DNA of 64,000 nucleotides from Tubulanus polymorphus (taxonomy: Eukaryota > Animalia > Nemertea): the NCBI RefSeq assembly GCF_964204645.1, contig NC_134026.1:31115432-31179431 (forward strand), in the 5' to 3' direction. Positions within the stretch are counted from its first letter, which is position 1; every line of letters starts with the position of its first letter. Both the position numbers and the translations under genes were made by a program. The notes under the pieces were generated by a model, which was given only the letters and a program-made list of their open reading frames with translations, did not search any database and was not told where the DNA came from. Of this stretch, positions 8,909 through 59,800 are shown in pieces.

Positions 8909-9762
8909 GTGGGGTTAAACTTTGATATCCAGGCTATGAAACCAGGCCCAGCAGGTAAAGGATTAACCCCTAGGGGTAGCTTTGATACCCGGTCTATGAA
9001 ACCAGGCCCAGCAGGTAAAGGATTAACCCCTAGGGGTAGCTTTGATACCCGGTCTATGAAACCAGGCCCAGCAGGTAAAGGATTAACCCCTAGGGGTAGC
9101 TTTGATACCCGGTCTATGAAACCAGGCCCAGCGGGTAAAGGATTAACCCCTAGGGGTAGCTTTGATACCCGGTCTATGAAACCAGGCCCAGCGGGTAAAG
9201 GATTAACCCCTAGGGGTAGCTTTGATACCCGGTCTATGAAACCAGGCCCAGCAGGTAAAGGATTAACCCCTAGGGGTAGCTTTGATACCCGGTCTATGAA
9301 ACCAGGCCCAGCAGGTAAAGGATTAACCCCTAGGGGTAGCTTTGATACCCGGTCTATGAAACTAGGCCCAGCGGGTAAAGGATTAACCCCTAGGGGTAGC
9401 TTTGATACCCGGTCTATGAAACCAGGCCCAGCGGGTAAAGGATTAACCCCTAGGGGTAGCTTTGATACCCGGTCTATGAAACCAGGCCCAGCGGGTAAAG
9501 GATTAACCCCTAGGGGTAGCTTTGATACCCGGTCTATGAAACCAGGCCCAGCAGGTAAAGGATTAACCCCTAGGGGTAGCTTTGATACCCGGTCTATGAA
9601 ACCAGGCCCAGCGGGTAAAGGATTAACCCCTAGGGTTAGCTTTGATACCCGGTCTATGAAACCAGGCCCAGCAGGTAAAGGATTAACCCCTAGGGGTAGC
9701 CTTGATACCCGGTCTCTGAAACCAGGCCCAGCAGGTAAAGGATTAACCCTATCAATGAAATC
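8909..9762. repeat. 60-bp minisatellite, about 14 near-identical units
   Basis: Unit 'accaggcccagc(a/g)ggtaaaggattaacccctaggggtagctttgatacccggtctatgaa'. The 302-aa ORF at 8909..9817 is an in-frame artefact because 60 is divisible by 3. The array lies between the convergent 3' ends of the iGluR and NCAPH genes. Confidence 0.95.
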
Positions 9763-9859
9763 TAGGGTTTGCTTGGTATTCTTAAAACAATCAGGTCGAA
9801 TGAATACTGTTAGATAATGGACTCAATCAATAATCTCAATGGATCAATCGTATATTTAC

Positions 9860-23097: not shown

Positions 23098-26000
23098 GGG
23101 AAATCGATTCACTGTCATTCTTTATCGGGTTTGAGTTTATCATCGACGAAATGGTTCGCAGAAAATCCCGAATCAGGATTGCGTTCATTTATTATGCACG
23201 CAACATCACTAATCAAAGAGGTAAAAATGCATTTTTGTTGCCTTTTTAATGTTTTTCACTTTGTTTTGTTGAAACTTTAGAACTCTTTGATTTTAGAGTA
23301 AGAAAGTCATTATAGATGATGACACCACATTGAAAGTTCGTAAAGCATTTATTGACTTCATAAAGAAGAAGGTATTTAAGAGATTTTATGCCAATGATGA
23401 TAGTGAAAATTATGAAATCTGAAGTATATGTTGTCCATGATTTCAGTTGGATATAAGATGCAAGTTTTCGTGCATCAAATGCTTCCCAAAGTTCGGTACA
23501 GATCAACTATTATGGGCTAGAGAATTCAGGAGAGCCGAGATAGCAAACGAAAGCATTGAAAGAGTCCATATTACTATTGACGATGGCGTCTTAGACTCGT
23601 GGAAATATAACGATAGTCAATTACATTGTTTACCAGGTTAAACATACACATGATATTCAGAATCGTTTTGTAAAAAAAAATATTTCAATCCTTTTCAAAA
23701 TTCATCTGTTTGATATTTGTAGACTGTCCATCGAAAACCGAGGAAAACTTAGAGATTACAGAAATAAAGTTGCCTTTGATCTTTCATTCGTTTTATAAGG
23801 TCATCCATTCTCCTATTTGAATAACGAACTCATAGATCGTCATATGTCACGTACTAAGTATGTTTTGTTGTATGTTTACAGGCAGATAAACCATGTTTAT
23901 TAATTGAACGCGAATGTTTTATAAATACTGATGCTTCAAAACTTAAAAACATCATTTCTCATTGGTTGAATTTAAACCCTATAGGATGGATAGTAGTAAT
24001 TACTCCTTATTCACCAGGTATAGTATATATCTTGCACATTTTGAGATGAAATATAGTGGAAAATGTTATGCAGAATGAGTTTGTTTACGGTGCTATTTCA
24101 GGATCAAGTTTTCAATCACGTTTATCAAAACAGAATGAAGTTCTTAGACATTTTATCACGCAGGTAAATGAGGAAAGTGTTTGTCGATTCTTTCGATATT
24201 ATGAATTTTCAAATTGAATGAACGGTTGTTTTTTAAATACAGTTAGAAGTTCCGATTTATGAAGTGAGTTTAGATGAAGCAATCGGAAAGAGCTCATTTT
24301 TACAGCCTCCACAAAGTGGATTATTAGCATTCATTCATAGATTGTTCCTCATCAATTTACATCATAAGGTAATTAATAATTATCACACTATAGACTCCTT
24401 ACTAAATTCGGTGCATTTACTGAAAAGGTTCGCTTGTTAATTCACTACTGAACAAGGCAGGACCAATTGTATTTACAGTAGATATGTCCAGTAATTGTCA
24501 GTAATCATGATTTTCCTCTAATAGAGAATTGTTTATACTTCAGTACACGTTGCTTCTGTGTCAGTCTCCAAATCTCATCAAATGTGCAATAAATATTGGA
24601 ATGAAATACATGAAGGTAAAATAACGAAATGAAAATATTCCTGAACGTTCGAGAAAATTGCATTCACTCGATATTTTACCTGTTTCAGAATGAAAAAGTG
24701 TTAAAAGACCCTAAACTGGTATGTCTTGAAATAGAAAGCTCAATTTCAGTCACTGGATTCGAGAAATGGGTCATAGTTTTCACAATTAATGTTACAGATA
24801 GTGTGCAATCAGGCATTTAATAAACCTGCAATACCCGAGATGTTGTCAAGCATAGAAACTAAATGGATGTTGGATACAGAGCCAGATTTAACTATACCTC
24901 TACAACATCTAAACAGACGGCAAACTGAAAACAACTGGCTTCATATCCACCACGATGTTGGACACGGGATTTCTGTGCATCTATTCTGCAAAGATGAAAT
25001 GACGTTAGGAAGGTATGATGAAATTTCTCGTCAAGTTCAGATCACCAGCATTGAACACGAAATAAGATTTAGATTGAATATTTTTTCTGATCTGATGCAG
25101 ATTCACTGAGAAGCACATCGAAACGAGTACTCCAATACATGAATCAGGAAGTAGACTAGTACCAGACACAGCCGACCGAGTGGAGTTTCTCAACCCGACT
25201 TTTGATCAAGATGAAAGTATTCTAGAAACGACGACATCTGAACAACGTCCCCGTGAAAACAGATCAATAGAATCATCGAAACCTAAGACAGTTGTTTTAT
25301 CATCACCTAATAAACGTCAATTACCGGCTTGGATGAATACATCGCCTAAAAAACATAAATATGTCAAACGGTAAATATAGGTCCCACACCTGAAGAGTAA
25401 AACTTCAAGGTCTCTTTTTTCTTGCTGGTGACAAATGGCACGAGAAACTCCTTCAGAAGAAACAGAGGGAATTGTGGTTCCCTGATTTTTATGAATCCAG
25501 CACAGTCATGATTAGGTGCAATGAGGGTGGATTCTAAAATGCATGAATGTTACACAAGGTTTTGATGAATCTTTGATTCAATTGTTTTCATATGGATTTA
25601 TTTTTTTAGAGGAGTTATAACAACTAAATATATCCTGACTCCTGATGAACTTGTACAAGTTGCTAAACAAGTATTGGACCAGGTAAACACTGAATTAATG
25701 TTCAAATAATCAATGAATGTTTTTATTTTGATTTGTTGTTGATATTTGTTTTAGGAAAATAGTGATGAGGAAATGACGGAAATGCAGCAGCCTGTTACAG
25801 ATGCACCAGATCAGCAGCAGCCTGTTAAAGATGCAATGGATCAGCAGCTCCCTGTTACAGGTGCAATGGATCAACAGCTACCTGTTACAGGTGCAATGGA
25901 TCAGCAGCAGCCTGTTAAAGATGCAATGGATCAGCAGCTCCCTGTTACAGGTGCAATGGATCAGCAGCTACCTGTTACAGGTGCAATGGATCAGCAGCTA

Positions 26001-26354
26001 CCTGTTACAGGTGCAATGGATCAGCAGCTCCCTGTTACAGGTGCAATGGATCAGCAGCTACCTGTTACAGGTGCAATGGATCAGCAGCTACCTGTTACAG
26101 GTGCAATGGATCAGCAGCTACCTGTTAGAGGTGCAATGGATCAGCAGCTACCTGTTACAGGTGCAATGGATCAGCAGCTACATGTTACAGGTGCAATGGA
26201 TCAGCAGCTACCTGTTACAGATGCACCAGATCTAGCAAACAGCAGTAAACATAGACTTGAAGAAGATAAGACGGATCAAAACCAGAAACTGAATCCAATC
26301 TCGAATAATGTAAAGAAACAAACTGAAATCGATTTGTCATTTTTAGATTTTTGA
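23098..26354 (+). CDS. Uncharacterised conserved-looking protein with a C-terminal Ku-binding-motif-like peptide (..SPNKRQLPAWM..) and a terminal DQQLPVTGAM decapeptide repeat. Multi-exon; the N-terminal exon or exons are not resolved.
   Basis: Exons 23098-23220, 23447-23636, 23886-24017, 24102-24163, 24243-24368, 24544-24615, 24689-24718 (30-nt micro-exon), 24798-25012 (contains 'NNWLHIHHDVGHGISVHLF'), 25101-25370 (ends '..SSPNKRQLPAWMNTSPKKHKYVK'), 25610-25682, 25755-26354 (stop TGA). All junctions are GT-AG and keep one continuous frame. A candidate first exon is ~22905-23004 ('MAYESVRSLFWIYVW..'). It shares a ~250-530 bp divergent promoter with BCCIP. I recognise no confident named homolog. 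Confidence 0.6.
25790..26225 (+). repeat. In-frame coding 30-bp minisatellite (~14 units) encoding (D/Q)QQLPVTGAM
   Basis: Unit 'gatcagcagctacctgttacaggtgcaatg' with synonymous variants ctc/cta and point substitutions (T>K, P>H, T>R). The alternative-frame ORF 25801..26235 is an artefact. Confidence 0.9.
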
Positions 26355-28436: not shown

Positions 28437-28901
28437 CTTCATTCGGAGGAAAGTCCAATAAAATTCAATTCAATTCAAACCGGAAGCAGGAAGTGTTCAA
28501 CTGGTTGAACTAAAAACCGAAACGAAACTACATTGAATACTATTTTCTGGAAAATTTCTGAAGAAAATAATTTGAAGATGAATCCAGGTAAATCCAGGAG
28601 TGTCGGTATATAGTGATCCCTGCGGGAGGGAGGGGCTGCTGCAGCTGGTGGGGCGAGAAGAGAGAACTCAGTCTCTTATCCATATCTTCCCCTACCCCCT
28701 AACTAAATAACTAAAACCCTTACCTTTATTATTGCCTTGGCTTTTGTGTTTTCTTATTCATTTAGATTCAGGCTAGTTACCCCCTAAATTGCAGTTGAGT
28801 TATACACCCGCTAAAAAAGTGACCCCTTTTTATCTGATCCTTACCCCCTAAACTGCAATTTAACCAACAACCAGTTGAGCAGTTTTCAATATATATACTC
28901 G
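28437..28901. promoter_or_regulatory. Bidirectional promoter interval between RNASEH2A (-) and VPS51 (+)
   Basis: 465 bp separates the two ATGs. A G/C-rich patch lies at 28615-28660. The 17-20-mer 'TACCCCCTAAA(T/C)TGCA(G/A)TT' occurs twice, at ~28781-28800 and ~28843-28862. Confidence 0.55.
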
Positions 28902-31900
28902 ATGTCTAATTTTGCCGCAGGTGAAGATGAAGACAGTCAGAGTAAACGACGTAAACATGGAATGCTTAAGATGTATTACGGAATAGCAGACGATCAGAGC
29001 GGAGCGTCTGCTTCTATTGATCCGTGCGATATTAACGGAGCTCATTTCAAAGCTGATATATTCTTGAATAAACTCCTCCGCGAGAAGAGTCTCGCTGAGT
29101 TAATGGATAAAGAGTCTGAGATGGTTAAGAATATTAAATCCCTAGACAGTGATATGCAGACATTGGTTTATGAGAATTACAACAAGTTTATCAGTGCTAC
29201 TGATACTATTAGAAAGGTCAGGTTACAGATTATTCACGGGCTTTGACGCAACCTTGTTTATCCCCAGGGACGAGTTCCATAGTCATGACTTAGACTTTAG
29301 GTCTAAGACCAGACTAAACTCATTTTGTTTCTATAACCAATCTAACAACTAAGACCAGTAGTCAAGATTTGAGATCATTTTTTGGACTTTTTAAGTCTCA
29401 ACTATGGAACTGTCACCTGTATCCTAGTAAGACAATTACTTGGATATTTGGGGTAAACAAGTTTGTGTCAGGACCTTTTGCATACTCCAAATGCTTTTTA
29501 TCCAAATGGCTTTTATTAAAGTCTTCTTGCCGTTATAGATGAAGAATGATTTTAAGAAGATGGAAGATGAAATGGATCGTTTAGCTACGAATATGGAATC
29601 AATAACAGAATTCAGCGGTCGAATTAGTACAACATTACAGGATCGTAGACAACAGATCACTAAACTAGCCGGAGTTCATATACTACTTAAAAAGGTTCAA
29701 TTTAACAATCTGAAGCACGTCTCTAAATGTTTTTCTTACACGTTTTTGTAAATGTTTCTTTCTCTGATTTCAGCTTCAATTCCTATTTGAATTACCAGCG
29801 CGTCTTAAAAAGTGTATTGAAATGAAAGCTTACAGTCAGGCAGTGCGGTATGATATCTACTTGTATATTACCTACTGCCGTATTACCGGTATTACTGTAT
29901 TGTATTCTGATTTCTATCGTATTTTCCAGATATTACACGAAAGCTCAGAAAGTTTTATGTCACTATCAGGACATGCCTTCATTTCACGGTATACAACAAG
30001 ACTGTAATGAAATTGTCAAAGAACTGCGATCGAAATTGAAAGAGAAATTCCGCGATAAAGAGGTGGTGTTTTACCCTTGGAAAATTCTAGTATTTCGCTT
30101 TCTATCAGTATTGTAAACATGGATATTTTATCTGATCATTTTTCAGTCAACTCCGAAAGAATTAGCTGAATGTGTCGATTTGTTGCTACAATTGAATGAA
30201 CCAGCTGAAGAACTATGTGAGGAATTCTTATCTCAGTAAGTGTGTTAGTTAACAGCCAATTAACCAGCCAGCTTACTTCATAAACTATTCAACCAGCCAG
30301 CTAACTGCACAAACCAGTCCGTCAGCCAACCATCTAGCGAGGTGACCACCAAACCAGTTGACCAGCCAGACATCCATCTTTTTATTTTTCAGTGCTCAGC
30401 AGAAAATAGATGAAGATCTTCAGAAGTTGGAGTATCAGTTAAAATTACAATCAGGAGAAATAGAACCAAAAACTACAACTGAAGTTGAACGTCCTTCAGA
30501 TGTTTATCTAGACGTCAATTTACCGGTGGTAAGATCAATATTCATTTCGTTTATGATTAGAATGAAAAATATTCACAAGAATTTTACAAAATCATCGAAG
30601 CAACTTTTCTGCCTATTTCAGAAAGAGCAGCCAGTGGTGTGTTTTATATTGTATTTATTGGGCATGATTCATAGAAAGTAACAAATAACGTCACCCTTTT
30701 AGATAAAGAATATTCCTCGTATTATTTAATAGTGTAAAACTCAGGATTCAGTTCCACAGTTTGCTGGTTAAGATTCAACCTTGAGTTATGATTAGTTCAT
30801 AACCGATGTTTTAACTCTATTGAGTCTAAAATCTAGAACAGGTAAAACTGTAGAACCGAGTCCTGGGTAAAACTAGTTACTAATTGTGTTTGTAGATGTT
30901 TAACTTTGTGAGTTAAAGATGGTGGAAATTATACTTAATCATTGCACGATTTAGAATTGTTCCAGAAAATGCATGTCACACCTTGTTTTGATCATTTTAA
31001 ATGTAGTTTAGTTAAAAATTTTAGATATGATACATTAATTTTACATAGAAATCCAACAAAAATTAACCATTAACCAATTCATAGTTATATTCATACTTTC
31101 ACTTATTACTAATACATGTGTTATTTTTATGTGCACAGCTTTAAAATGTTCACCTTTTTCTGTGTGTGATGATTCATCTTTTGGGCCCATTTGCTGCCAG
31201 GACCCAGTTCACAAACTTGTCCGGTTAAATTTGACTCCAAAATTAGAATTCATTCTCGATGTTTTATCTCTGGAGTCAAATTCTAACCGTGGAACTGCAT
31301 CCATGTTGATAGATACCACAGTAACAGTTTTAATTGTTAAGTCAGTTATCCACTTATTTACTCTAGCCTACTTTTAGGACAACTAAACCTCTGAAGGTTC
31401 AATAGAAATTGCTCTAACGATTCTATTTTAGAACTGTTTAAAATGTTTTACTTCATTGTAGTTGATTTTAACAAGAATTTTCTTTCTGAAATGCTGTAGG
31501 ATATTTTGGAGTTTATTGATATCGGTTGTAATGGTTTTCTCAGTAACGTGTGTCTGGTGATTGCTGTTTACAATGATATGTTCCTCAAAGGAGAAAGGTA
31601 TGAAATCAATCTCTCCGATCCTCCCCTCCCCCCTCCCCAGTCCTACGAATAGTCAGTGAATATTGAGATGATGTCTATTTATGTTACAGTGAATCTTTTG
31701 ATGGCATCGCTTTGAAGAAATTAGTTATATTTATAAATGGATTGATGGAAAGATATTTCTCTTTTGTGGAAAGACGAGTTCAACTTGAGGTAAGATTAAT
31801 TTCTATCAACTGCTAGGACACAGGGCTCTTATAGATCAGCAGAAAAAATCGGGGAATTCCAAATCTGATTTTCCCTGCATCAAAAATCTGAGAATTGACC

Positions 31901-45515: not shown

Positions 45516-48500
45516 CACTAGTTGCTCAATGGTTGATTAACGTTAACCATCAGATAAATACCATCATTGTTACACAATGACATTTTGATATTGTCACTAT
45601 ACAGTGTCAACTATTGGTTGGTTACTCTAACTAATAATCTTTTGAGCAACAGCATCGACGGGACCCAAGTTTCATTGAGGCTCCTCGCACGTGCACAGGT
45701 CCCAACTCGGACCCTGGATCGGATAAACTCAAACAAACTTTGGTTTGCGAGAAAACCGTTCGGTAAGTGAGAATCACGTGTGGCACAATAACTCCTATCA
45801 ATCTCAGGTATGATATAAGTGTTGTTTGAATGAATATTTTGCCGCTGGTACGGGATGCAGTCAGTGTTAGCATATATTGGGCATAGCAAATATTGGCGGC
45901 ATAATTTTACATTTCTCTGCGCACACGACGAATATATAAATGAATTGAAGGATTGTCGAACACAAAAGGAACCGGCGGCGGCGGCGGCCGTCCCATCGTT
46001 AACGGTGTGACAGGTTTTTACCCGTATCTCGCTAAACAATAGGAACAAAGGTCGCACTCCAACCGAGCACGTGCTGACGCGAGTTGGTTTATAGCGCAAC
46101 CTTCCTTATTTACAAAAGAAACCCATTATGCAAACTCAACTCACCGAAACATTTTTGCATTTCAAATGCGCATAGCGATATGTTTTTATATATTGGAGAG
46201 GGGAATCATATTCATGTCTCTTTATTATCAATGATATTGAATTGGATATAAAAGCGCGACTCGGTGCGGGGACATGCGAGAACCTGTTGCTAACGTGAAT
46301 ACGATATAAAATTGGTGGGAAGAATAGTCGGTTTGTCATTAGTAAAGAAGCTAGACTCGAGGACGGACCGATGATTGACTGACTCCTCAGGCGCGGAGCA
46401 GCCGGAGACAGTCATCTCTCTCAATGGACTACACCCGCTAGCTGTATGGCGGTTAACTATTACTGACGCGGAAATTGTGCAATTTTTTCTTGATTCGTGT
46501 TTAGCTCTAATGGGGTTAATCAGTGTTAATTATTTGCAATTAAGGAATATATGCGACCGCGATGATGTTATATCAGCGTGATAGAGAGGTGTATCTCAGT
46601 TTCGGAGGATACGGATGCTGCTGCTGCTGATGCTGATGTTTGTCGTTTACTATACTAAGTAGTAGTGCCGCAGGTAGATTAGTTAAACGATACCTGCTCA
46701 TTACTGCTTACTATAGAACTCGACTTCAACAACAAAAACAAACTAATATTCGGCTGATATATATCCGACACCAGTTCATTTTCATTTCTGAATTCGGGCT
46801 ATAATGATATGTATATAGATTTTGAATTCGTCTGTTCTTCGGGTGAATTTATCATGATTCATTCCGTTTTCGATGGTAACAGCAGGTCTTTAAAATATGC
46901 TTTCCATTATAATCTGTCACACATGATGTGCATACATATTTTCGATATATATTTAACATATTTGAATATATATACATTTGTTAAGTTTGTCTGCAACAAG
47001 TTGGTACCAGGGTAACGCATTGCAGTCAACAGTCGGTGTCGTTATGTTCGGTGGCATGGTGATTTCGGATTCGAATCGTTCACTCAGGCCAAATACTAAG
47101 TACTTGTGCCGCAGGAGCTGCATTCAATATCTCCTGTCGTTCCAGTACTTAATCTGAGGCCAGTCTAATCAACTTACTAAAACTGTTCGAGAAATGTGAA
47201 ATTTTAGCTACACTGACGCGAGATATGAGGTGAGAAAATGACAGTTTTATCGGGACTGTATGTGCTAAAATTTACACTAGTTTTGATACTAAATCCAAAC
47301 TGATGTTATCAATATTTTGTCAAGTATCTATGATTCAGAGCAAGAGCATCTTATGTCCAGCGGGCGAGGCCTCACTTGGATACTTAAACCATTCAACATT
47401 GTATTGATGATAACTAATGGTTTTGAACGCTATATAATCTAAAATATCTGCAGGCCTATAAGATTTATGGCAGAAATATGTGGGATTAAGTTTATATTTC
47501 AAAACTAAATTGCTGTCGACACAGTTGATAATGATAGATATTATTGAAAATATTTTTAACTAATTTCTGAATCTAAATTAATGATTTGTGAATTGTGATG
47601 TTATCTTCGACATTTTCATTGCTTATTTATTGATAAATAAATCTATGATTTTGAATTGCAAACCGTTGCGTTATCAGTTTTAATTCAATCCATAAACTAC
47701 AGATAATTTACTGAATTCTGAATTGAATATTCTCTTCGTTTTTGTTTAAAGAATAACATATTCTGCCATTCCCTTCATCGGAAAACAGCGGATGCAAGCC
47801 TTGAATGAAATTCCCATTTATTTAGCAATGGTCGGACCTACGCCGGTGGTTCGGACGCTGGTATGTGAGGATCGGGAATGTGGTTTGTGCACTGGTAAGC
47901 GAGGTTTGGGTAAGGGATTCCAGCCCTGGCAAGCAAGGTAAACACGGTAACCAGTCTACTCGAGATACAGACCAGAAACCAGTCTATTTGTTTCTTGTCT
48001 ATTTTGTCGCTTTACTGGGCTGAAAAGTGGTATTCTAGTTAAAAGTACATAATATCTTCCATGCGAATAAAGTTCCTTGTAAAGGTATCGTTTTGCTGAT
48101 TTTTTTCTGCGCCGATAGATGGCGAATAGGAGGATCAGTTTCGCTGGTACGGTTCGGTCGTCTCTTCATAAATAGCCCACGTGCCTGCAGAGCTATCGGC
48201 TTCTACTGTCCACACAATCTAGAAAAATATATAAATACATACTTCATTCTATTTAAAAGCGTCTTTAACAAAAGGATTACGATAACAAATTGAAAAATAA
48301 AATCTAGTTCCCTAGAACGCCGTCTGCATCTAACACAGTCAAATTCTAACTCAGAACTGAGTGCAGTTCTTTAAGTTCAGGACCCAGATAAAGAGTCGTT
48401 AAAGTTAACCAACATTATGTTGGGAGAATCCATGTCACTCAGATAGACTCGCTTGTAGTCTGGACTGATGCATTTGTACGCATTTTGGAGCCGTGGAAAG

Positions 48501-50342: not shown

Positions 50343-50426
50343 GAAGTTCGAACCGGCAGGACTCGAAACTGCGGTCTCCGGGTTACCAGGCGGGAATTCT
50401 AACCACTAGACCATAGATCTGTGGTA
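50343..50426 (-). pseudogene. tRNA-Asp-derived Pol III element (degenerate tRNA pseudogene or SINE head) with a T6 terminator
   Basis: The minus strand reads 'GATCTATGGTCTAGTGGTTAGAATTCCCGCCTGGTAACCCGGAGACCGCAGTTTCGAGTCCTGCCGGTTCGAACTTCGCTTTTTT'. A-box 'TGGTCTAGTGG'. B-box 'GTTTCGAGTCC'. It tracks the canonical tRNA-Asp '..GTATCCCCGCCTGTCACGCGGGAGACCGGGGTTCGATTCCCCG' segment by segment. The acceptor and anticodon stems no longer pair, so it is not a functional tRNA. Confidence 0.6.
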
Positions 50427-50689
50427 ATCACTCGGGTGTGTAAGTTTGTCTCGTATGTGATTTCGTATGTGTTCAGTTTGCTTAAAATCGATTTTCAGAA
50501 TGTATCTTAAACAGTTTGTCAAACGGATTAAGTTAAACAGATAACTGGGGTAAACTGAGGACACATCAGTGTGAATATTAATTGAATTTGCGTGGATTTG
50601 AACCAAATGGAATTTTTGTGGCGTTGATCAGGTTCGAATCCCATCAGAAAATTATTTTCTAGACTTGGCGGTAATATTGGTACTTTTCA

Positions 50690-50771
50690 TTGGTCAGGAT
50701 CAGTGACGTCACACTGTCAGTATAAAAACTCAGGTCAGCTGATCCCTCCTTCCAGTTCGGCCATTTTTCAG
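50690..50771 (+). promoter_or_regulatory. Pol II core promoter (palindromic CRE TGACGTCA at 50704-50711; TATAAAA at 50721-50727) plus a short non-coding first exon ending at the donor 'cag|gtaagc' (50771)
   Basis: CRE-to-TATA spacing is ~10 bp. The predicted TSS at ~50750 is followed ~20 nt later by a consensus 5' splice site. The matching acceptor 'ttacattgcag' lies at 51395, immediately before the CAG-rich 5'UTR and the ATG at 51520. Confidence 0.6.
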
Positions 50772-51519
50772 GTAAGCAAACGTCGTCCATTTTATTTAAT
50801 TCTTTCGATAAAATTTATTTATCAATCTTACTTGTAAATTTTATACATATAGACCTTAGGTTTCGCATACGGCTTTATGTAAGACAATTTCAAGAGTTCC
50901 GAAAGTTCGGATTATATCATATAGGTGTTTAATTATGACATTTCCATTTTGACGTTCCTTTTGCTCTAAATTGTCCAAATGGTGTTTTTAACATTTAGAA
51001 GTAAATTTCAACGTTTGATTTGCAATTTCGCTCTCGTAATAATGAAGACGTTATTGTGATTTTATTGAGGAAATTTATTAAACTTATTTATGAAATTTTC
51101 GGAAGCAGTTTTTCTGGTGTTCAAATCTAGCGCTAAAGCGGCTAGTTGACATGCCTAGGTGTAATACACAGACAGCTCAGTCTATTGAACCATGACTCGA
51201 ATCCATAGAAACCTTTCATTCGAAGCGTCGTTCAACTTAATCCTGCTGGCTTCTATATCTATTATTAAGAAAATAATGATAAAATAATTTAATGTTAATT
51301 ATTATTATTACTTAATAGAAACTCGATTTAGCTATTTCTTTGAGTCAATAATTTTCGATTTTCTTGATTTTTATAAGATTGTTTTTACATTGCAGTAGCA
51401 GCAGCAGCATCAACAGCAGCAGTTAAAAAAGCAACAGTTATAAAAGCAACAGCAGCAGTACAACGACAACTACAACAATTACAACTTCAACAATTAAAAC
51501 TTGAACTTCAACTTTGAAT

Positions 51520-54500
51520 ATGTCTACAAAATATGACCTTTTTTCGGGACTGTTGAAGCTGGTTCGCGCCGAGGTGCTGACGCTCGACCCTGAAACCCTC
51601 GGCGCGTTTTTTGATTTGAGTAAGTACAAAGTCTACTTCATCAATCTCAATCTGGGGTATCTCAAATTCTCGATTATTTTTCATGAACATCTCAAATTAT
51701 TTGATTTCCAACATCCGAAATTATTTGATCTCAAATTCACAATCACAATTATTTTATCTCAAATCTCCGCATTATTTGATTTCCTAAATCTCAAATTGTC
51801 TAAATCTCAATTATTTCAAATATCATCAATTAAAAAATCTAATATCATCTAATGTCAATTTCTTTCAATTCTCTTTTTAAGTTTGGAAAACTCTCAAACT
51901 TAATTGAATTTGCTATCGAATCTATGGTGAATTAAGTTTGAATTGAATTGAATTGAATAGTGAGTAGAGGCTCTGGTGGATGAGAATTAACTCGAGGAAG
52001 TAACTTCATTTCCTGGTTTCGGTTCCAAATATTGTCCAAATTGTGAAATATTCATCATGTTATTCATATTCCAGTCAATAGAGATAAGTTACAACATAAA
52101 TAATTTAAACTGTGTAGGCTTCCAGACCAATGCATTTCATAGAAAATCCTGATTTATGTTTAATAAATCAAGTAACTGGACTGCGCGGTTCAGTCCATTT
52201 AGTCAGGAAGCAGACTGCAGTTTAGTCCTTATTTTAATCAGTAACTGGACTGCGGTGTAGTCCATATTTTAGTCAATAACTGTACTACCGTTTAATCCAT
52301 ATTTTAGTCAATAACTGGACTGCGGTGTAGTCCATGTTTTAGTGGACTACCGTTTAATCCATATTATAGTCAATAACTGGACTGCGGTGTAGTCCATGTT
52401 TTAGTGGACTATGGTTTAGTCCATATTTTAGTCAATAACTGGACTGCGGTGTAGTCCATATTTTAGTGTACTATGGTTTAGTCCATATTTTAGTCAATAA
52501 CTGGACTGCGGTTTAGTTGATAGTTTAGTCAGGAACCGCACGGCTGTTTAGTTTATATCCAGATACCCGTCACATTATGGGACCAACTTTTAAGATACCG
52601 CTGAAAAGTAGCACTAGTACTTTACGGTACTTTTGTTTTTCTCTGCGACTCCAGGATCCGAAAACATGTGATTTTCTTTTTTTATTAATCATTCATCAAC
52701 CGTCAGGAAATTCAGGATCACTATTTTTGATTGATTGGTTAAACTTTATTCCTCGTATCTCAAGGTAGTTGCTCAAAACAGTTTGAGATGCGGAGATTAT
52801 GGCAGGAAGGAGGTACATCTCGCCACTGCTATCATGAGCTTATCTGTGAACTAGTCTCAAGCCGCACCCACTCAATGTTTATACTAGATCTAAACTGATG
52901 TTTGATACAAATGTCCTTCACTAACTGGGCTCATAGTCAGAATCTTCATCGTCTAATTGTTGGCGAATCCTAGATATTGTGGCCTTGCGGCAAATACAGT
53001 TTGCACACGATTTATTTTGTAATGGATTCATTATTACGGTCAAAGGTTGGCACCTTGTTAGGTACTGAGTCTTATACAGTGAGTTTACTCAGTATCCGGA
53101 CCACAGTTTACTCAGTATCCGGACCACAGTTTACTCAGTATCCAGACCACAGTTTACTCAGCATCCGGATGACAGTTTACTCAGTATCCGGACCACAGTT
53201 TACTCAGTATCCGGATCACAGTTTACTCAGTATCCGGACCACAGTTTACTCAGTATCCGGACCACAGTTTACTCAGTATCCGGACCACAGTTTACTCAGT
53301 ATCCGGATTACAGTTTAGTCAGTAACGGAACTGTGTGATTCATTTCGTTCTGAGACCAGATTTTATCAAATTTCCTCTAGCTGTTCTTCAGATAATCTTC
53401 ACCCGTCAAGGGATTCGAACCCACTACGCTAAAGCTGTTCGCCGAATCCCTTGACCTCATGAGTCGTTACTAGCTGACCAGAATCCGGTTGTACCAATTA
53501 CAGCGCTTGTTACAAACGATATAAGGCTTCTGTTGGAATTACCGATAAATGGACCAATCAGCGAACAAGAAAGTATTTCGCAAGTCGATATATGACGTCA
53601 TGCGCAACAGCGCCAGTAATGAAATCACGCGTCGTGAAGCCAGGGGGGCTGGTGGAAGCGAGTTTGGGAGTGATACCGGACCCCTGGCAAGCGAGGATGT
53701 CTTCAGATAGGCCTACCCTTTGACTTAATGTTTTATTTTTCAGAATTCTTTTATTTTCTTGAAGCGATAAAAAGTATTTCCTCTACCGTTATCCAGGCCT
53801 GACATTTATCTAGGTCTATCCTGTTTTACACCTTACAAGTTCGACGTGGACATTTCGTATTGTTTTTTCTGTAAACAACTGCAGCTGTATTTATAGTGAA
53901 TTATTCCACTGAATGATTCTATATTTGAAGGGTAAGTAGTGACTTATTTGAAATACTTAATAAATTCATGTGAAATAGGCCTAAATTCTAAATATCGTTT
54001 ATTGTTCGCTGTTTAATGATGTTTGATTTTTATAGATAAAAATCTTATTATAATTTGTAGTGAATGGATTTAATTGTATGAAGTTGCAGCTGTGGACTGT
54101 GTCGTGTGAAATGGTTTTTACACCTGGTGGTTGTTTCTTAAAGTAAAAGTTTTTTGATTGATGATGAAAATACAGAAAATAAAGAAGAAATTTGAATGAA
54201 ATTTTTTGTGTCGTTTTTCTGTTTGTCATGAAATGAAAATGAATAAGACTTACTTAGCAGAATCCATAGGGAAATGTGCAGAACTCGAAGGAAATATCAC
54301 CATTTTGGAACTAAAATTCGAACTAAGGTTCGAATCCATGACGACCTGGTTTCCCAGAATGCTTCCCGTATCCCGTAAATGTTCACTTCATTTCCGTTTA
54401 TTCTCTGCCTGAACCGGTAAACTGTAATGGCTGTTCGCCTATATTATAGAATACATGTATGTACTATCAACCTTCTATCTCTGTTAGCAAAAATACATAA

Positions 54501-57500
54501 AAACATGAGAACATCTTTATTTTTGCTGTTAGTGATTAGGCCTTATGTTCTATTAATGCACACGCATGACTTAAATTGGTCATAATTTCCATTACTCAAA
54601 GAGGACATCACAAGTGAACTGAATCGTAGGAAAATGTTGCGGGATAAAGAAACATGAAATGTCCAGTCTATTGAAGGACTTGTGTCTAGTATATTATCTC
54701 TTTCAGTGCCCATGTGTAATAAGAGAAAAACCCTCAGAGTGCCCATCATTGTTACCTAAAAAGTAGGAAAATCAATAGAAACTTTGGAGCTCCGTAGAGT
54801 GAAAACTGTAAGAGATAAAGCTTTATGGTAATTGAAAAGTTTGTAGGGTATGAATGACCCTTGGATAATTTTGGTGGTAATTTTTCTTACTGAAAGTGAC
54901 GTCCTATGCAAATGAGCTAATTTGCATGAATTATAATCGGTGACCTATTTATTTGATAACCCCCTAAATTTCATGTATCAAAATGAACAAATCTGGTATC
55001 TAGCCTCAGCTAAAAGCTGACAATGGAATATTCTATGTCTACGGTCACAAATATATATTTTATGGGTAATTATAATTAGTAAATGAGCTAATAATTAAAT
55101 CACGTGACCTCCGGATAAGTACCCGCTACTTTCAAACGCAAAAAACTCAAATATTTTGAATAGCAACACCACAAAAACGCAGCATAAAAACTTACTAACA
55201 TTTAATCAAGCCATCTAGCGGCAGGTTTCTCCGCTGAATTCTATGCGACTAAACTGCTATAAGAAATGTCGATGAAAGTCGACAGGGCACTGTACGACCA
55301 GAAATAATCTGTAGACGAAAGTCGACTGGGCACTGAAAAAGTTATAGAAGGAATTTGGGGATTCACTACATGGTCAGATTGTATACAATACAAAGAAATT
55401 GATCATTTTGACCGCTATTAGGCTCAATAAATCTTTTCATCAATTGATTTTTGCAATTCTTAAAAACCGGTAACTGCCTAATTAGGTATGAAAATAAAGG
55501 TGCCAAACTGTAGCGGATTAGGCGGAGTCTACTGCATAATGAATACCACTTTAAAATGGCTGTGCATGGAATTTTGTTGATCTGAATAAATCAATCGTTG
55601 GTGTAAGATGAATTATACATTCTAGGTAAGTTATGCAATGAATATGTGGAGTACCGATAGGCCTATTGCTGACAATGAATATTCTATTGGGAATAATGAA
55701 TTACAGCCATTTGTGTTGATAGCTAAATATTGTTCTTCAAAATGAATGTATTATATTTGTAGTGAGTGTTGTTTCTGAAGGTGCAGTAGTGGGCAGTGTT
55801 GTGTGAAATGGTTTTTACTGGTTTTAGATTCAGCGAAGTGAAATTATTTATGTCGTTTTTCTGTTTTAATTCATGCTGTAAATAGTTTAAACAATAAAAT
55901 ATTAAAAAATCAGTCATAATTTTATCTTCATTTTTGATAAAATATAATATGTTATACACACTTGCCTCATGTTCAGGGGAAATAAAATGCAAATTCTCCC
56001 ACTTATCGTGGATGGAGTGTGGCCCTGTATGCAATCAAAAAGTGTTCTACAAAATGATTGAATAGATTTCTGAAGTGTGGACAAATTTTTCACTCATCCA
56101 ATTGAAAAGTAATTACTGAATAAAAGGGATTATCGATCAATTTTTTGTTTACAGCGCGACATCTGTTTTAAATTAGATCTTTTATCGTTGCAAAGTTTCC
56201 ATTTCAATTGGTTGACAAATGAAAAGTTATCATGCGTGTTATTCCAAAGAGGTTCCCAGATTTTGAAAACAAGGGTCATGGGTAACAATTCCATTGATTA
56301 TTCATTATAATGTATAGTTTTTGTCACCTGGAACCTGGTACGTCATCACCCCCAGACAAAAATCAAGTGTATTTTTGATTCATGATTTGCTACCAAAATT
56401 GATTGTCGGTAATTATAGGATGTAATTTATTACAATCAGTAGTTCCAGTAATGAATTAACAAAAGTGTTAGTCGCCAGCAACTAGCAAAGTACCCGTCCA
56501 CATACAGCGTTGGTTCTGAAACATATAAGTATATAAGACATAAAAATACCATTATTAAAAATTGTATTGAAAGATTCAATTATCAGCCTCACTGATGATA
56601 TACTGTCGACTTATCGTTATTATGTAATGGATGATGCAAATTATGAGAGCGGTAAAAAGTGAAGTTACAACAGCGTTAGTCGTACAACCATATCGTACAA
56701 CCAGTGACATGATCACTTCTCACAAAATAAGCTTACGATTGCTTCCAAACATTCAAATGACCCTTCTTACCCTACTTTGTTCGTTCTTCCATCACGTCAC
56801 ATTCACCTATTGGATAACTGCATCATTTTATAGGTTAATATCTAGAAATACGATAATTATATGCGAGCATGTCATTTATGTGTAATATGCATGATCCTTA
56901 ATGTTTTTTTTTTCATTCCAGATTTAGACATCATAGACTCTATCAACCACGACCAGTCTGAAGCAGCCCGCAGAGCACTTCAAGAATTTAAAGAAATTTA
57001 TACAAGGTGTGTATCTCTCTGCGGGCCTAAGGAACCAACTCCTCCAGAAATCATTCCACCTTTTGAGTTGGTTCCTTTGCAGGAGGTGGACCCTGCTTCT
57101 CCCGTAAATGTGGAGCAGGAGGTCGCCCCTGCAGTGGTGACCCCGACAGAGGCGCCACAGCTTCAGACGCCTTCACTGCGTCGGTCGCCCCGTCGTAATA
57201 CAAAAGAAATAGATTATACAGAAGGTACGGGGCGTCCGAAATCAAAAAAAAAAGGCAAACGTGCAGCTCGTCCTCCCCCACTTCCGCAACCAAATTTTGA
57301 GGAGGAGAGCAGTGATGAGGAGGAATTCGCCACTCCTGGAGCGCCACCACCAGGGCCCGCAACACCACCACCTCGCGATGATATTAGACCACCACGACGA
57401 CCACGACAACCACCTGCAACTACTACTAATTCTACTACTACTACCACTACTACCACTACTAAGAAAAGACGACCACGACCACCTACTTCAACTGCGACTA

Positions 57501-57787
57501 GTACTACTACAACTTCGACAACTAGATCAAATAATACAAGAAATAGAAAAAGAAGACTTGAAGATGAAGAAAGTGATGATGATTACGAAAATAATAATAC
57601 GCCCGCCCAGGCATCGACATCGGGCGCTCCAGCGGGGCCACCACCTTCCCCCGCTGTCGAGCTCATCGCGCGCGGCCCTGGTTGGTCAAGAAACATCGAG
57701 TATAAAGATCCTATTAGAATGCTCCGCGATGTTGAAGGGGCCTTTAAAGGAAAATATCAATTAGTAAAACGTCGGCGAACACAATAG
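51520..57787 (+). CDS. Orphan gene with two coding exons: a conserved-looking N-terminal 33-aa helix-like segment plus a long basic/Pro/Thr/Ser-rich low-complexity C-terminal exon
   Basis: Coding exon 1 at 51520-51619 ('MSTKYDLFSGLLKLVRAEVLTLDPETLGAFFDL', donor 'a|gtaagt'). Acceptor 'tttttttcattccag' at 56921. Coding exon 2 at 56922-57787 keeps the frame ('N-LDIIDSINHDQSEAARRALQEFKEIYTRC..PPPLPQP..TTTTTTTTTKKRRPRPP..KRRLEDEESDDDYENN..GWSRNIEYKDPIRMLRDVEGAFKGKYQLVKRRRTQ*'). The 5.3-kb intron is packed with satellites. The 5'UTR exon begins at 51396 with (CAG/CAA)n. Intermediate small exons cannot be excluded. Confidence 0.5.
52180..52545. repeat. Variable ~60-65-bp tandem repeat ('gtccatattttagtcaataactggactgcggtgtagtccatgttttagtggactatggtttag')
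   Basis: Visual periodicity. Confidence 0.85.
53080..53335. repeat. 23-bp tandem repeat 'ccggaccacagtttactcagtat', ~11 units
   Basis: The ORF 52977..53318 is an artefact of this array. Confidence 0.9.
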
Positions 57788-58229
57788 TATAATATCAGCC
57801 CCTTCACTCGCCATCACCCGGGCAACAACATCAGCCCATGCACGTCTGCAGATCGGCACTTCTTGAAACTCAGTTTTCCCTTCCTCCTTCGTCGATCTGC
57901 AGGTTGCGCAGTGTTAAATATCTGTCAACACTCCTTGAACCAGTGGGCGTGCAGTCCTTCCTTATTTTTATTTGAAAAAAATATGAAAAAATAAAAACCA
58001 GCCTTGTAAATATGGATTTTATGGAGTTTTACGGTTAATCTCCAAAAAAATTTAAAAAGATAAAAATATAAAAAAATTCATAATCATTTCATCAATTTAT
58101 TTATTTTTTGGATGAAAGGAAATTTTTATCCATCATCTCATTCATATACATTTTATATCATTTATTTATTTCTTTTTTTTTTGACTGTACGTCCCACTGT
58201 GTTCCACACCATTTTTGTTCCGACCCATA

Positions 58230-58700
58230 TTCATTAAGATTCATTGTGCTTCTCACAATGCTGAAGCATTTACCATCTTTGCTTCTACTTTGCAGTAGTA
58301 ACCATCCATACCACCTGATTGTGGAAGTAGCCTTCTTAGGAGTCATCTATCCTAATCCTATGGTCAGCCTTTTCAAATGTCTTTCGGGATATAGACCATC
58401 CTTGCTACTACTTCTATTACAATACCTTATTATGAAGGTTCATTTTGCTTCTCATGATGCTGAAGCATTTACCATCTTTGCCACTACTTAGCAGCAGTAA
58501 CCATCCATACCACCTGATTGTGGAAGTAGCCTTCTTAGGAGTCATCAATTTTAATCCTATGGTCAGCCTTTTCAAATGTCTTTCGGGATATAGACCATCC
58601 TTGCTACTACTTCTATTACAATACCTTATTATGAAGGTTCATTTTGCTTCTCATGATGCTGAAGCATTTACCATCCTTGTCACTACTTACTACTATGGTC
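58230..58700. repeat. ~207-bp tandem repeat, ~2.3 units
   Basis: 'gctgaagcatttaccatctttgc.actact..gcag.agtaaccatccataccacctgattgtggaagtagccttcttaggagtcatc' is repeated. The overlapping ORFs 58108..58491 and 58445..58711 are artefacts. Confidence 0.85.
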
Positions 58701-58789: not shown

Positions 58790-58960
58790 AAAGGAACAGC
58801 TATGATTCACATAATGTGATTCTTTATCGAACTTTATCGGAACATGGAGAAGGAATAGCTATGTTTCACACATAATGCGTTTCCTTATGAAGCTGAAAAT
58901 AACGTGGAGAAGGAACAGCTATGTTTCACATAATGCGATTCCTTAGGAAACTACATTGAA
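58790..58960. repeat. ~60-bp tandem repeat, 3 units ('ggaacagctatg(a/t)ttcacataatg(t/c)gattc(t/c)tta')
   Basis: Visual periodicity. Confidence 0.8.
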
Positions 58961-59589: not shown

Positions 59590-59800
59590 TCAATAAGGCA
59601 TATGAGAGAGGAGGTCTGATATATGAGAGAAGAGGTTCAGGGAGGTATGAGAGAGGAGGTTCAGGGAATAAAGAGTTTATGGAGATATGATAGAGGAGTT
59701 TATGGAGATATGATAGAGGAGTTTATGGAGATATGAGAGAGGAGTTTAGGGAGATATGAGAGAGAGGAGTTTAGAGAGATATGATAGAGGAGATGGTCTA
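59590..59800. repeat. ~27-bp purine-rich tandem repeat ('gagaggag(g)tttatggagatatgata')
   Basis: Visual periodicity. Confidence 0.8.

What the first reader, a model, noticed from the sequence alone, without database searches (positions are those of the whole stretch)
50690..57787. Orphan gene: CRE+TATA promoter, CAG/CAA-repeat 5'UTR, 100-nt first coding exon, 5.3-kb satellite-filled intron, and a single 866-nt exon encoding a basic Pro/Thr-rich tail with a T9 run
The three pieces fit precisely. The promoter at 50704-50727 drives a 20-nt leader exon whose donor (50771) pairs with the acceptor at 51395. The ATG at 51520 opens 'MSTKYDLFSGLLKLVRAEVLTLDPETLGAFFDL'. The donor at 51619 pairs in frame with the acceptor at 56921. 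The product has a short structured-looking N-terminus and C-terminus ('GWSRNIEYKDPIRMLRDVEGAFKGKYQLVKRRR') around a highly disordered, NLS-rich, poly-Thr or (ACT)n-encoded middle. I recognise no named family. It may be a lineage-specific nuclear protein.
Basis: partly seen in the sequence, partly recalled or inferred. Interest (0 to 1): 0.5.

Follow-up and report, generated by a model that had tools for sequence, protein, structure and literature searches.

The report
Probable three-exon gene, disordered nuclear protein
This stretch of an invertebrate-type genome very probably holds a real but ordinary protein-coding gene for a mostly unstructured, basic, probably nuclear protein that resembles no known family, though the searchable databases contain no close relatives of the organism, so its "orphan" status is untested.

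Summary
A full CRE and a TATA box lie 10 bp apart, a combination found once in the window against 0.01 expected. An Inr-like CCAGTTC follows, then CAG|GTAAGC, an acceptor ending at 51395, and a CAG/CAA-rich leader with no upstream ATG. The ATG is at 51520, the donor TGA|GTAAGT follows 51619, the acceptor T10CATTCCAG ends at 56921, and the join is in frame, giving 321 aa.

The last exon is convincingly coding. It has 287 open codons, against at most 194 in 2000 dinucleotide shuffles. GC at codon positions 1/2/3 is 0.58/0.57/0.33, and only in-frame tandem repeats match its 3-base periodicity.

"Satellite-filled" is overstated. Two arrays cover about 630 of the intron's 5302 nt.

The protein is 35.6 kDa with pI 9.0, rich in Pro, Thr and Arg. 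It has four basic clusters, nine S/T-P sites and acidic Ser patches. AlphaFold predicts only terminal helices.

No Pfam, PDB, 5.8-billion-protein, 1.84-billion-representative, metagenome or viral match was found. However, the neighbouring DDX56 exon finds nothing above 69% identity, so this absence says little.

Best reading: a CREB/ATF-type-driven gene for a disordered nuclear protein. The splice junctions, the transcription start and the function remain inferred. Interest is low.

The parts
50704..50711 (.). Full palindromic cAMP-response element TGACGTCA, -50 to -43 from the inferred start site
   Evidence: The motif occurs 6 times in the window against 0.9 expected. With the TATA box it forms a combination found once, against 0.01 expected.
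50721..50727 (+). TATA box TATAAAA
   Evidence: It lies 33 bp upstream of the Inr-like A at 50754.
50752..50758 (+). Initiator-like CCAGTTC, matching YYANWYY; inferred transcription start at A 50754
   Evidence: Read from the sequence. The start site is inferred, not shown.
50754..50771 (+). Inferred non-coding exon 1, about 18 nt, ending at donor CAG|GTAAGC
   Evidence: The donor scores at the 99.9th percentile of all GT sites in the window. The exon's length depends on the inferred start site.
50772..51395 (+). Intron 1, 624 nt, GC 0.295, acceptor ...TTTTTACATTGCAG
   Evidence: The acceptor is at the 86th percentile, which is moderate.
51396..51519 (+). 5'UTR part of exon 2, rich in CAG/CAA with 15-nt tandem units
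   Evidence: The 142-nt spliced leader has no ATG (P about 0.06 for random intronic 142-mers), an in-frame TGA lies 18 nt upstream of the ATG, and position -3 is A.
51520..51619 (+). First coding segment, 100 nt: 33 codons plus 1 nt, ending at donor TGA|GTAAGT (phase 1)
   Evidence: GC rises to 0.50 exactly between the ATG and the donor. This is the only phase-1 donor with a decent score inside the open frame.
51620..56921 (+). Intron 2, 5302 nt, GC 0.353
   Evidence: No ORF exceeds 113 aa, and that one lies inside a satellite. No Rfam family matches.
52168..52552 (.). Satellite array in intron 2, nested periods of 35, 62 and 124 bp
53082..53324 (.). Satellite array in intron 2: 23-bp unit AGTTTACTCAGTATCCGGACCAC, 10.6 copies, 94% matches
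   Evidence: A tRNA T-arm-like box on the minus strand lies about 90 nt downstream, at about 53410-53422.
56922..57787 (+). Coding part of exon 3, 866 nt including the stop TAG. It follows the acceptor T10CATTCCAG. An in-frame tandem acceptor 6 nt downstream (56927) would remove 2 aa.
   Evidence: 287 open codons against a shuffle maximum of 194. GC1/2/3 is 0.58/0.57/0.33. Periodicity chi-square is 86 against a window median of 6.8. The acceptor is at the 99.4th percentile.
57396..57524 (+). Internal in-frame duplication (57396-57452 and 57468-57524, 79% identical) encoding two [RRPR-PP]-[poly-Thr] units. It contains the (ACT)n microsatellite at 57419-57461 and the T9 run.
57788..58012 (+). 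Inferred 3'UTR with the only AATAAA (57990-57995) in the 900 nt after the stop, followed by CA and a T/GT-rich stretch
   Evidence: The cleavage site is inferred.

Best explanation
This is a genuine three-exon, RNA-polymerase-II protein-coding gene on the + strand.

Gene structure:
- A compact core promoter (full CRE, TATA box, Inr-like element) would start transcription near 50754.
- A very short leader exon is spliced to a CAG/CAA-rich exon that carries the first ATG at 51520.
- After 100 coding nt, a 5.3-kb repeat-bearing intron is removed.
- One long exon supplies the remaining 288 codons and a 3'UTR of about 200 nt ending at AATAAA 57990.

The product is a 321-aa, 35.6-kDa basic protein:
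- an N-terminal helical module of about 65 aa that spans the exon 2/3 junction;
- a disordered centre of about 230 aa, rich in Pro, Thr and Arg. It has four Lys/Arg clusters of classical NLS type, a GRP (AT-hook-like) core, nine Ser/Thr-Pro sites and two acidic Ser patches of CK2 type;
- a C-terminal amphipathic basic helix.

Inferred mechanism: the protein is imported into the nucleus through its basic clusters. It acts as a disordered adaptor, with the terminal helices binding partners and the basic centre contacting nucleic acid or chromatin. Proline-directed and acidophilic phosphorylation tune it. Its transcription responds to CREB/ATF-type factors.

Shown: the sequence features, the coding signal and the predicted disorder with terminal helices. 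Inferred: the transcription start, both splice junctions, nuclear localisation, the mode of action and the inducibility.
For: - Coding signal. The exon-3 ORF is far longer than its composition allows (0 of 2000 shuffles). It is the only open frame of the six, with 1 stop against 6-27 in the others. Third-position GC (0.33) equals the genomic background while positions 1 and 2 are 0.57-0.58. Only in-frame tandem repeats match the periodicity, and it survives removal of the Thr-rich duplication (chi-square 54, 98th percentile).
- Gene anatomy. The CRE+TATA pairing is unique in the window. A near-perfect donor lies 18 nt after the Inr-like A, and a top-1% acceptor lies directly in front of the ORF. 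The only decent phase-1 donor after the ATG joins that acceptor in frame. The leader has no ATG, there is an in-frame stop upstream of the ATG, and -3 is A. A single AATAAA lies about 200 nt after the stop. GC steps up exactly at the ATG-donor segment.
- Not a repeat. The exons and the promoter are single-copy within the window.
- Protein. AlphaFold on the single sequence gives helices at exon-3 residues 2-8 and 13-33 (pLDDT 75-85) and 263-286 (pLDDT about 57), and nothing else. Exon-2 residues 3-20 and 24-31 are helical at low confidence.
- Promoter type. CRE/TATA promoters are the strongly inducible subset of CREB targets in mammals (PMC5740062).
Against: - No expression data and no homologue of any kind, so neither the junctions nor selective constraint can be shown.
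- An 18-nt first exon is unusually short.
- Acceptor 1 and the exonic side of donor 2 are only moderate.
- Codon choice for Pro (CCA/CCT) differs from the neighbouring DDX56 and VPS51 exons (CCG), on small samples.
- About a quarter of the ORF is low-complexity sequence that could expand by slippage.
- NLS, kinase-site and AT-hook assignments are pattern matches in a basic, Pro/Ser/Thr-rich sequence, where such matches are expected by composition.
- AlphaFold confidence is low overall (mean pLDDT 53).
- The CREB inference is carried over from mammals.
Confidence: 0.55

Rival explanations
1. Exon 3 is coding, but the 5' end of the gene is different. It may be joined to unrecognised exons inside the 5.3-kb 'intron' or upstream of 50.7 kb, for example in a transcript that also hosts the two mir-252 hairpins 3.5 kb upstream on the same strand. 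Alternatively, exon 2 may have its own start site, with the CRE/TATA element serving something else.
For: - The leader exon would be only about 18 nt, and acceptor 1 is merely at the 86th percentile.
- mir-252 lies at 46647 and 47088 on the same strand.
- Exon 2's GC3 (0.61) is at the top of the range seen along the coding sequence.
- A second CCAAT + full CRE sits inside intron 2, at 53554-53600.
Against: - The CRE-TATA-Inr-donor order and spacing are canonical, and the combination is unique in the window.
- The exon 2 donor is the only decent phase-1 donor, and it joins in frame.
- The helical N-terminal module reads smoothly across the junction.
- Intron 2 has no ORF above 113 aa outside the satellites and keeps intronic GC.
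Confidence: 0.17
2. The ORF is translated without splicing from the ATG at 56861. That gives a 308-aa protein with a hydrophobic, signal-peptide-like start (MRACHLCVICMILNVFFFIP). It would be a secreted, mucin-like Thr/Pro-rich precursor, and its dibasic clusters would be convertase cleavage sites rather than nuclear import signals.
For: - The ORF is open from 56861.
- Residues 4-19 have a mean Kyte-Doolittle hydropathy of 2.5.
- Upstream lie TCACGTCA (56792-56799), ATTGG (56809-56813) and TTTTATAGG (56826-56834).
- Poly-Thr/Pro tracts and RKRR/KRRR sites suit an O-glycosylated, processed secretory protein.
Against: - The hydrophobic stretch is simply the translation of the polypyrimidine tract and AG of a top-1% acceptor, in AT-rich, intron-like sequence.
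- The TATA-like element is only 32 nt from that ATG, so the ATG would sit at or before the cap.
- The next ATG (56869) is out of frame.
- The mature part has just two Cys, only 4 residues apart (aa 63 and 67).
- The alternating acidic and basic blocks with Ser-acidic patches are typical of nuclear proteins.
- No exact copy of this ORF is on record.
Confidence: 0.07
3. It is not a functional protein gene. The ORF would be a decaying pseudogene or a young proto-gene, or part of a non-coding transcript whose open frame is kept only by GC- and repeat-rich composition.
For: - No homologue or domain anywhere.
- Other frames of the same stretch are also fairly open: 167 aa on the + strand and 106 and 80 aa on the - strand.
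- The stretch holds an (ACT)n microsatellite and an internal duplication.
- The differences between the duplicated units are not concentrated at third positions (5/2/5).
Against: - The open length exceeds every one of 2000 composition-matched shuffles.
- The strong codon-position asymmetry, with GC3 at background, persists without the repeats.
- Start context, splice signals and the poly(A) signal are all intact.
Confidence: 0.12
4. It is a highly diverged member of a known family of short-motif nuclear proteins, not an orphan. Candidates include an AT-hook/HMG-type, nucleosome arginine-anchor, PCNA-binding or Cip/Kip-like protein. Its relatives would be missing from, or unrecognisable in, the databases searched.
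For: - The databases lack close relatives of this organism: DDX56 has a best hit of 69%.
- Motif-level resemblances exist: GRPKSKKKGKR at aa 137-147, RRSPRRNTKEIDY at aa 120-132, LGAFF at aa 27-31, and CVSLCGP with GKY.
Against: - None of the corresponding Pfam models scores even at E<=10, on the whole protein or on its pieces.
- PDB sequence searches give nothing better than E=0.065, and that hit is compositional (CD3-epsilon tail).
- Each resemblance covers only 5-13 residues in a biased sequence.
Confidence: 0.09

Closest known systems
Taxonomically restricted ('orphan') genes encoding intrinsically disordered nuclear proteins
   Same: Few exons and one long low-complexity coding exon. High Pro/Thr/Arg/Ser content. 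Short terminal helices around a disordered centre. No detectable family. Microsatellite-driven internal expansion.
   Different: Restriction to a lineage is not shown here, because the searchable collections lack close relatives of the source organism.
CRE/TATA class of CREB target promoters (mammalian c-fos, Nr4a1/2, Dusp1; PMC5740062)
   Same: A full TGACGTCA lies immediately upstream of a consensus TATA box, within about 50 bp of the inferred start.
   Different: The organism is an unidentified invertebrate-type genome. No binding or induction data exist. The element is 10 bp from the TATA box, and the first exon would be only about 18 nt.
HMGA / AT-hook proteins
   Same: Small, basic and disordered, with a G-R-P core flanked by Lys/Arg (TGRPKSKKKGKR) and acidic Ser-rich patches that look like CK2 sites.
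   Different: Only one such motif is present, and it lacks the Arg before Gly (RGRP). No Pfam match. The helical termini have no counterpart in HMGA.
Mucin-like secreted Thr/Pro-rich proteins
   Same: Poly-Thr and Pro-rich tracts encoded by an (ACT)n-type repeat.
   Different: The spliced model has no signal peptide. Thr-rich tracts make up only about 10% of the protein. They are interleaved with NLS-type basic clusters and acidic patches.
Cip/Kip CDK inhibitors (CDI domain, PF02234)
   Same: Superficial C-x-x-L-x-G-P and G-K-Y strings, a disordered basic protein and a C-terminal KRRR.
   Different: The two strings are about 245 residues apart instead of about 50. No CDI match even at E<=10.

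Membership tests
Eukaryotic spliced protein-coding gene (generic) | An open reading frame longer than composition allows, with codon-position asymmetry | tested here: met
   287 codons against a shuffle maximum of 194. GC1/2/3 is 0.58/0.57/0.33. Periodicity chi-square is 86 against a median of 6.8.
Eukaryotic spliced protein-coding gene (generic) | GT-AG introns with consensus signals that join the coding segments in frame | tested here: met
   This rests on sequence signals only; the junctions were not observed in RNA.
Eukaryotic spliced protein-coding gene (generic) | Transcript evidence: start site, junction reads, polyadenylation | not testable with these tools
   No RNA-seq or cDNA resource for this organism is reachable. 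The exact-ORF look-up found nothing.
Orphan / taxonomically restricted gene | No homologue outside a narrow lineage, despite adequate sampling of relatives | tested here: inconclusive
   No hits. However, the neighbouring DDX56 exon has a best hit of only 69% identity, so sampling of relatives is inadequate.
CRE/TATA CREB-responsive promoter | [quoted passage not shown] | tested here: met
   The definition is taken from PMC5740062. The start site itself is inferred.
CRE/TATA CREB-responsive promoter | CREB/CRTC occupancy and induction by cAMP or Ca2+ | not testable with these tools
   This needs ChIP or an induction experiment.
AT-hook / HMGA | One or more R-G-R-P cores recognised by family profiles | tested here: not met
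   Only T-G-R-P-K at aa 136-140. No Pfam hit at E<=10.
Cip/Kip CDK inhibitor (PF02234) | A contiguous CDI domain of about 50 aa | tested here: not met
   No hit at E<=10 on the whole protein or on its pieces.
Secreted mucin-like protein | An N-terminal signal peptide on the translated product | tested here: inconclusive
   The spliced N-terminus has no hydrophobic core (maximum 15-residue hydropathy 1.2). The unspliced ATG-56861 start does have one (2.5), but it coincides with the acceptor's pyrimidine tract. No signal-peptide predictor is available.
Transposable-element or virus-derived ORF | Similarity to TE or viral proteins, or multiple copies | tested here: not met
   Single copy in the window. 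No Pfam, PHROG or IMG/VR relative. Genome-wide copy number could not be tested.

The most novel reading that the evidence does not exclude
This is a truly lineage-restricted, recently evolved gene encoding a CREB-inducible, immediate-early-type nuclear disordered protein. Its centre would be growing by microsatellite slippage and duplication of a [basic-Pro]-[poly-Thr] unit. That would make it an invertebrate-specific addition to the activity- or stress-induced transcription programme.
Probability: 0.15. Interest if true: 0.45.

Novelty: new member of a known kind. Interest (0 to 1): 0.2.

Why it matters
If the model is right, it adds one more uncharacterised, fast-evolving disordered nuclear protein to an invertebrate gene catalogue. 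That helps annotation, because ab initio pipelines often miss or break genes with an 18-nt leader exon, a 100-nt first coding segment and a 5-kb repeat-bearing intron. The textbook CRE-TATA-Inr promoter would make the gene a convenient candidate reporter of cAMP/CREB signalling in that organism. It does not bear on any long-standing open question, and nothing about its anatomy is unusual for a metazoan gene.

Tried and rejected
- Homology searches all came back empty:
  - Pfam on the whole protein and on three pieces. The only hit was TPR_PATROL1 at 12.5 bits against a cut-off of 27, which I rejected.
  - PHROGs.
  - The 5.8-billion-protein word-indexed search, with the whole protein and with the N-terminus.
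  - A full HMMER scan of 1.84 billion representatives with exon 3.
  - PDB sequences with the whole protein and with both termini. The best hits were the CD3-epsilon tail at E=0.065, which is compositional, and a phage baseplate protein at E=1.
  - JGI metagenome and IMG/VR contigs.
  - An exact-sequence look-up of the 308-aa ORF.
Only exon-wise sequences could be used.
- I could not identify the organism. The best DDX56 relative is an unnamed Logan contig, SRR26183964. The only informatively named hit is Branchiostoma at 58%.
- Rfam at a permissive threshold over 50.0-58.6 kb gave only a sub-threshold tRNA-like hit.
- Inverted-repeat and bacterial promoter/terminator scans were uninformative.
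- Comparing the two internally duplicated units by codon position was uninformative (5/2/5 differences).
- AlphaFold on the exon-2 read-through gave low-confidence helices only.
- I did not run a fold search, because the models are too low in confidence to give meaningful matches.
- A first literature search returned nothing relevant.
- The 33-aa exon-2 query was too short for a locus search.


Full report
**Observation.** I read 50500-58300 and rebuilt the proposed mRNA.
- TGACGTCA is at 50704-50711 and TATAAAA at 50721-50727.
- The first donor is CAG|GTAAGC after 50771, and the first acceptor is TTGCAG ending at 51395.
- Exon 2 is 224 nt. Its first 124 nt are CAG/CAA-rich, and an ATG lies at 51520.
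- The second donor is TGA|GTAAGT after 51619, and the second acceptor is T10CATTCCAG ending at 56921.
- The 100-nt and 866-nt coding pieces join in phase 1 to give 966 nt: 321 codons plus a stop. The quoted N- and C-termini and the T9 run are present.
- An initiator-like CCAGTTC (50752-50758) puts the likely start at A 50754, 33 bp after the first T of the TATA box. The leader exon is therefore about 18 nt.

**Is it more than chance?**
- CRE-N(5-20)-TATAAA occurs once in the 64-kb window, against 0.01 expected. The bare CRE occurs six times against 0.9 expected.
- I scored the splice sites with a generic PWM against all GT and AG sites in the window. Donor 1 is at the 99.9th percentile and acceptor 2 at the 99.4th. 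Donor 2 is at the 93rd (perfect GTAAGT, poor exonic side) and acceptor 1 at the 86th.
- Within the frame opened by the ATG, the donor at 51620 is the only phase-1 donor with a positive score worth noting. It is exactly the phase the downstream ORF needs.
- A tandem acceptor 6 nt further on (56927) is also in frame and would delete two residues.
- The spliced 142-nt leader has no ATG (P about 0.06 for random intronic 142-mers). An in-frame TGA lies 18 nt upstream of the ATG, and position -3 is A. The only AATAAA/ATTAAA in the 900 nt after the stop is at 57990.

**Is exon 3 coding?**
- Its 287 open codons exceed all 2000 dinucleotide-preserving shuffles, which had a mean of 97 and a maximum of 194.
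- That frame has one stop, the terminal one. The other five frames have 6-27.
- GC at codon positions 1/2/3 is 0.58/0.57/0.33. The third position sits at the genomic background, and the window as a whole is 0.37.
- The 3-base periodicity chi-square is 86, against a window median of 6.8 and a 95th percentile of 22. Only two tandem repeats with periods that are multiples of three (8.9-9.8 kb and 25.3-25.9 kb) equal it.
- Removing the Thr-rich duplicated part still leaves a chi-square of 54, the 98th percentile.
- The exons and the promoter are single-copy in the window.
- I therefore regard the "untranslated repeat-derived sequence" refutation as unlikely.
- GC3 varies from 0.12 to 0.61 along the coding sequence, so the GC3-rich exon 2 segment is at the top of that range but only slightly above exon 3's own peak of 0.55. 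Pro codon choice does differ from the neighbouring housekeeping exons.

**The intron.** It is 5302 nt, and "satellite-filled" is too strong.
- Tandem Repeats Finder reports two arrays: 52168-52552 (nested periods of 35, 62 and 124 bp) and 53082-53324 (23 bp, 10.6 copies). Together they cover about 12% of the intron.
- The rest holds tRNA T-arm-like boxes, probably tRNA-derived SINE fragments.
- It also holds a degenerate dispersed repeat (54046-54121 and 55749-55818).
- It contains a CCAAT box plus a second full CRE (53554-53600) and an octamer palindrome (54906-54927).
- There is no Rfam family, and no ORF over 113 aa outside the satellites.

**The protein**. It is 35.6 kDa with pI 9.0, and contains 14% Pro, 12% Thr and 10% Arg.
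- Residues 1-67 and 68-120 are acidic overall.
- A basic block at 121-160 contains RRSPRR and TGRPKSKKKGKR.
- An acidic Ser patch (EEESSDEEE) follows, then Pro-rich sequence.
- Next come two duplicated [RRPR-PP]-[poly-Thr] units, at DNA positions 57396-57452 and 57468-57524, which are 79% identical.
- After these come RNRKRR, a second acidic patch (EDEESDDDYE), and a C-terminus ending in KRRRTQ.
- Pattern matches give four basic clusters of classical NLS type, nine S/T-P sites (one full CDK consensus, SPRR) and several CK2-type sites.
- AlphaFold2 on the exon-3 product, as a single sequence, has a mean pLDDT of 53. It predicts helices only at exon-3 residues 2-8, 13-33 (pLDDT 75-85) and 263-286 (about 57). 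Everything between is unstructured.
- The exon-2 part is helical at low confidence.
- The description "short structured ends around a disordered, NLS-rich middle" therefore holds as a prediction.

**What family?** None could be found. All of the following searches were empty:
- Pfam on the whole protein and in pieces, and PHROGs;
- PDB sequences;
- the 5.8-billion-protein search with the whole protein and with the N-terminus;
- a full HMMER pass over 1.84 billion representatives with exon 3;
- metagenome and viral contigs;
- an exact-ORF look-up.

This absence is weak evidence for orphan status. The 169-aa DEAD-box exon of the neighbouring DDX56 gene (17201-17707) finds nothing better than 69% identity, and its only informatively named hit is amphioxus at 58%. 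The collections therefore contain no close relative of this organism, and a disordered protein would be unrecognisable at that distance.

**Context.**
- All genes in the window are on the + strand:
  - an ionotropic glutamate-receptor-type exon at 6026 (Lig_chan);
  - DDX56 exons at 16.8-19.0 kb;
  - a VPS51 N-terminal exon at 28.9 kb;
  - two mir-252 hairpins at 46.6 and 47.1 kb;
  - the candidate gene.
- mir-252 together with 37% GC fits an invertebrate-type genome. Window CpG o/e is 0.86, so CpG is not depleted. I could not name the species.

**Mechanism (inferred).** The CRE next to a TATA box matches the architecture that marks the strongly inducible subset of CREB targets in mammals (PMC5740062). 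I therefore expect signal-dependent, TATA-directed transcription. The product should enter the nucleus through its basic clusters. It should act as a disordered adaptor whose terminal helices bind partners and whose basic centre contacts nucleic acid or chromatin, under control of proline-directed and CK2-type phosphorylation. Only the sequence features are shown. Every functional step is inference, and the motif resemblances (AT-hook-like GRP, arginine-anchor-like RRSPRR, PIP-like LGAFF, Cip/Kip-like CxxLxGP and GKY) are leads from memory that the Pfam tests did not support.

**Rivals.**
1. The 5' structure is different, for example other exons or a shared transcript with mir-252. The 18-nt leader and the moderate acceptor 1 keep this alive (0.17).
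2. The ORF is translated unspliced from ATG 56861, with a signal-peptide-like start. But that hydrophobic stretch is simply the translated pyrimidine tract of an excellent acceptor, and the TATA-like element upstream is too close to the ATG (0.07).
3. It is a non-functional ORF or proto-gene. The ORF length and the periodicity argue against this (0.12).
4. It is a diverged member of a known family that is unrecognisable here (0.09).

**Verdict.** This is most likely an ordinary, uncharacterised gene for a disordered nuclear protein. Its orphan status and its function are open, and RNA-seq plus comparison with related genomes would settle both. Interest is low.

Noticed in passing
window 46647-46719 and 47088-47160 (+): Two mir-252 precursor hairpins (62 and 53 bits; mature arms CUAAGUAGUAGUGCCGCAGGUA and CUAAGUACUUGUGCCGCAGGAG). 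They are 440 bp apart and 3.5 kb upstream of the candidate promoter, on the same strand. Full CREs lie at 44352 and 45222 upstream of them.
   Followed up: partly
window 8909-9817 (+) and 25773-26354 (+): Long ORFs made wholly of in-frame tandem repeats: a 21-aa unit PGPAGKGLTPRGSFDTRSMK (302 aa) and a 10-aa unit MDQQLPVTGA (193 aa). They show the strongest 3-base periodicity in the window. The Pfam hits are spurious repeat artefacts. It is unknown whether they are coding exons or minisatellites.
   Followed up: partly
window 50348-50420 (-); also about 50631 (+), 53410 (-), 54328 (+): A tRNA-like sequence just below the Rfam cut-off (26.9 against 29 bits) lies about 300 bp upstream of the promoter. 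Several GGTTCGAATCC T-arm-like boxes are also present, probably from tRNA-derived SINE copies. The 23-bp satellite at 53082-53324 lies about 90 nt upstream of one of them.
   Followed up: partly
window 53554-53600 and 54897-54927 (inside intron 2): A CCAAT box plus a second full CRE (TGACGTCA at 53593) sits in a locally GC-richer stretch. A half-CRE is followed by an octamer palindrome, ATGCAAAT...ATTTGCAT. These could be an internal or antisense promoter, or transposable-element remnants.
   Followed up: no
window 54046-54121 and 55749-55818: A degenerate dispersed repeat (78% over 76 nt, with a shared GTCGTTTTTCTGTTT downstream) in direct orientation within intron 2. TAGGCCT motifs (three of them ATAGGCCTA) also recur at about 53710, 53977, 54540 and 55659.
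   Followed up: partly
window 58228-58689, 58791-58949, 59600-59790: More tandem arrays lie immediately downstream of the gene's 3' end: a 199-bp unit x2.3, a 60-bp unit x2.7, and a GAGAGGAGTTTATGGAGATAT-type array seen by eye.
   Followed up: no
whole window; 16821-18206: CpG observed/expected is 0.86 for the window and above 1.1 in the DDX56 and VPS51 exons, so CpG is not depleted. TGACGTCA is about 6-fold over-represented (6 against 0.9 expected).
   Followed up: partly
window 16800-19010 (+), 28875-29243 (+), 6026-6397 (+): Neighbouring conserved genes: DDX56/DBP9-type DEAD-box helicase exons, a VPS51 N-terminal exon (PF08700, 1.6e-18) and a ligand-gated ion-channel exon (PF00060, 2.4e-12).
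   Followed up: yes
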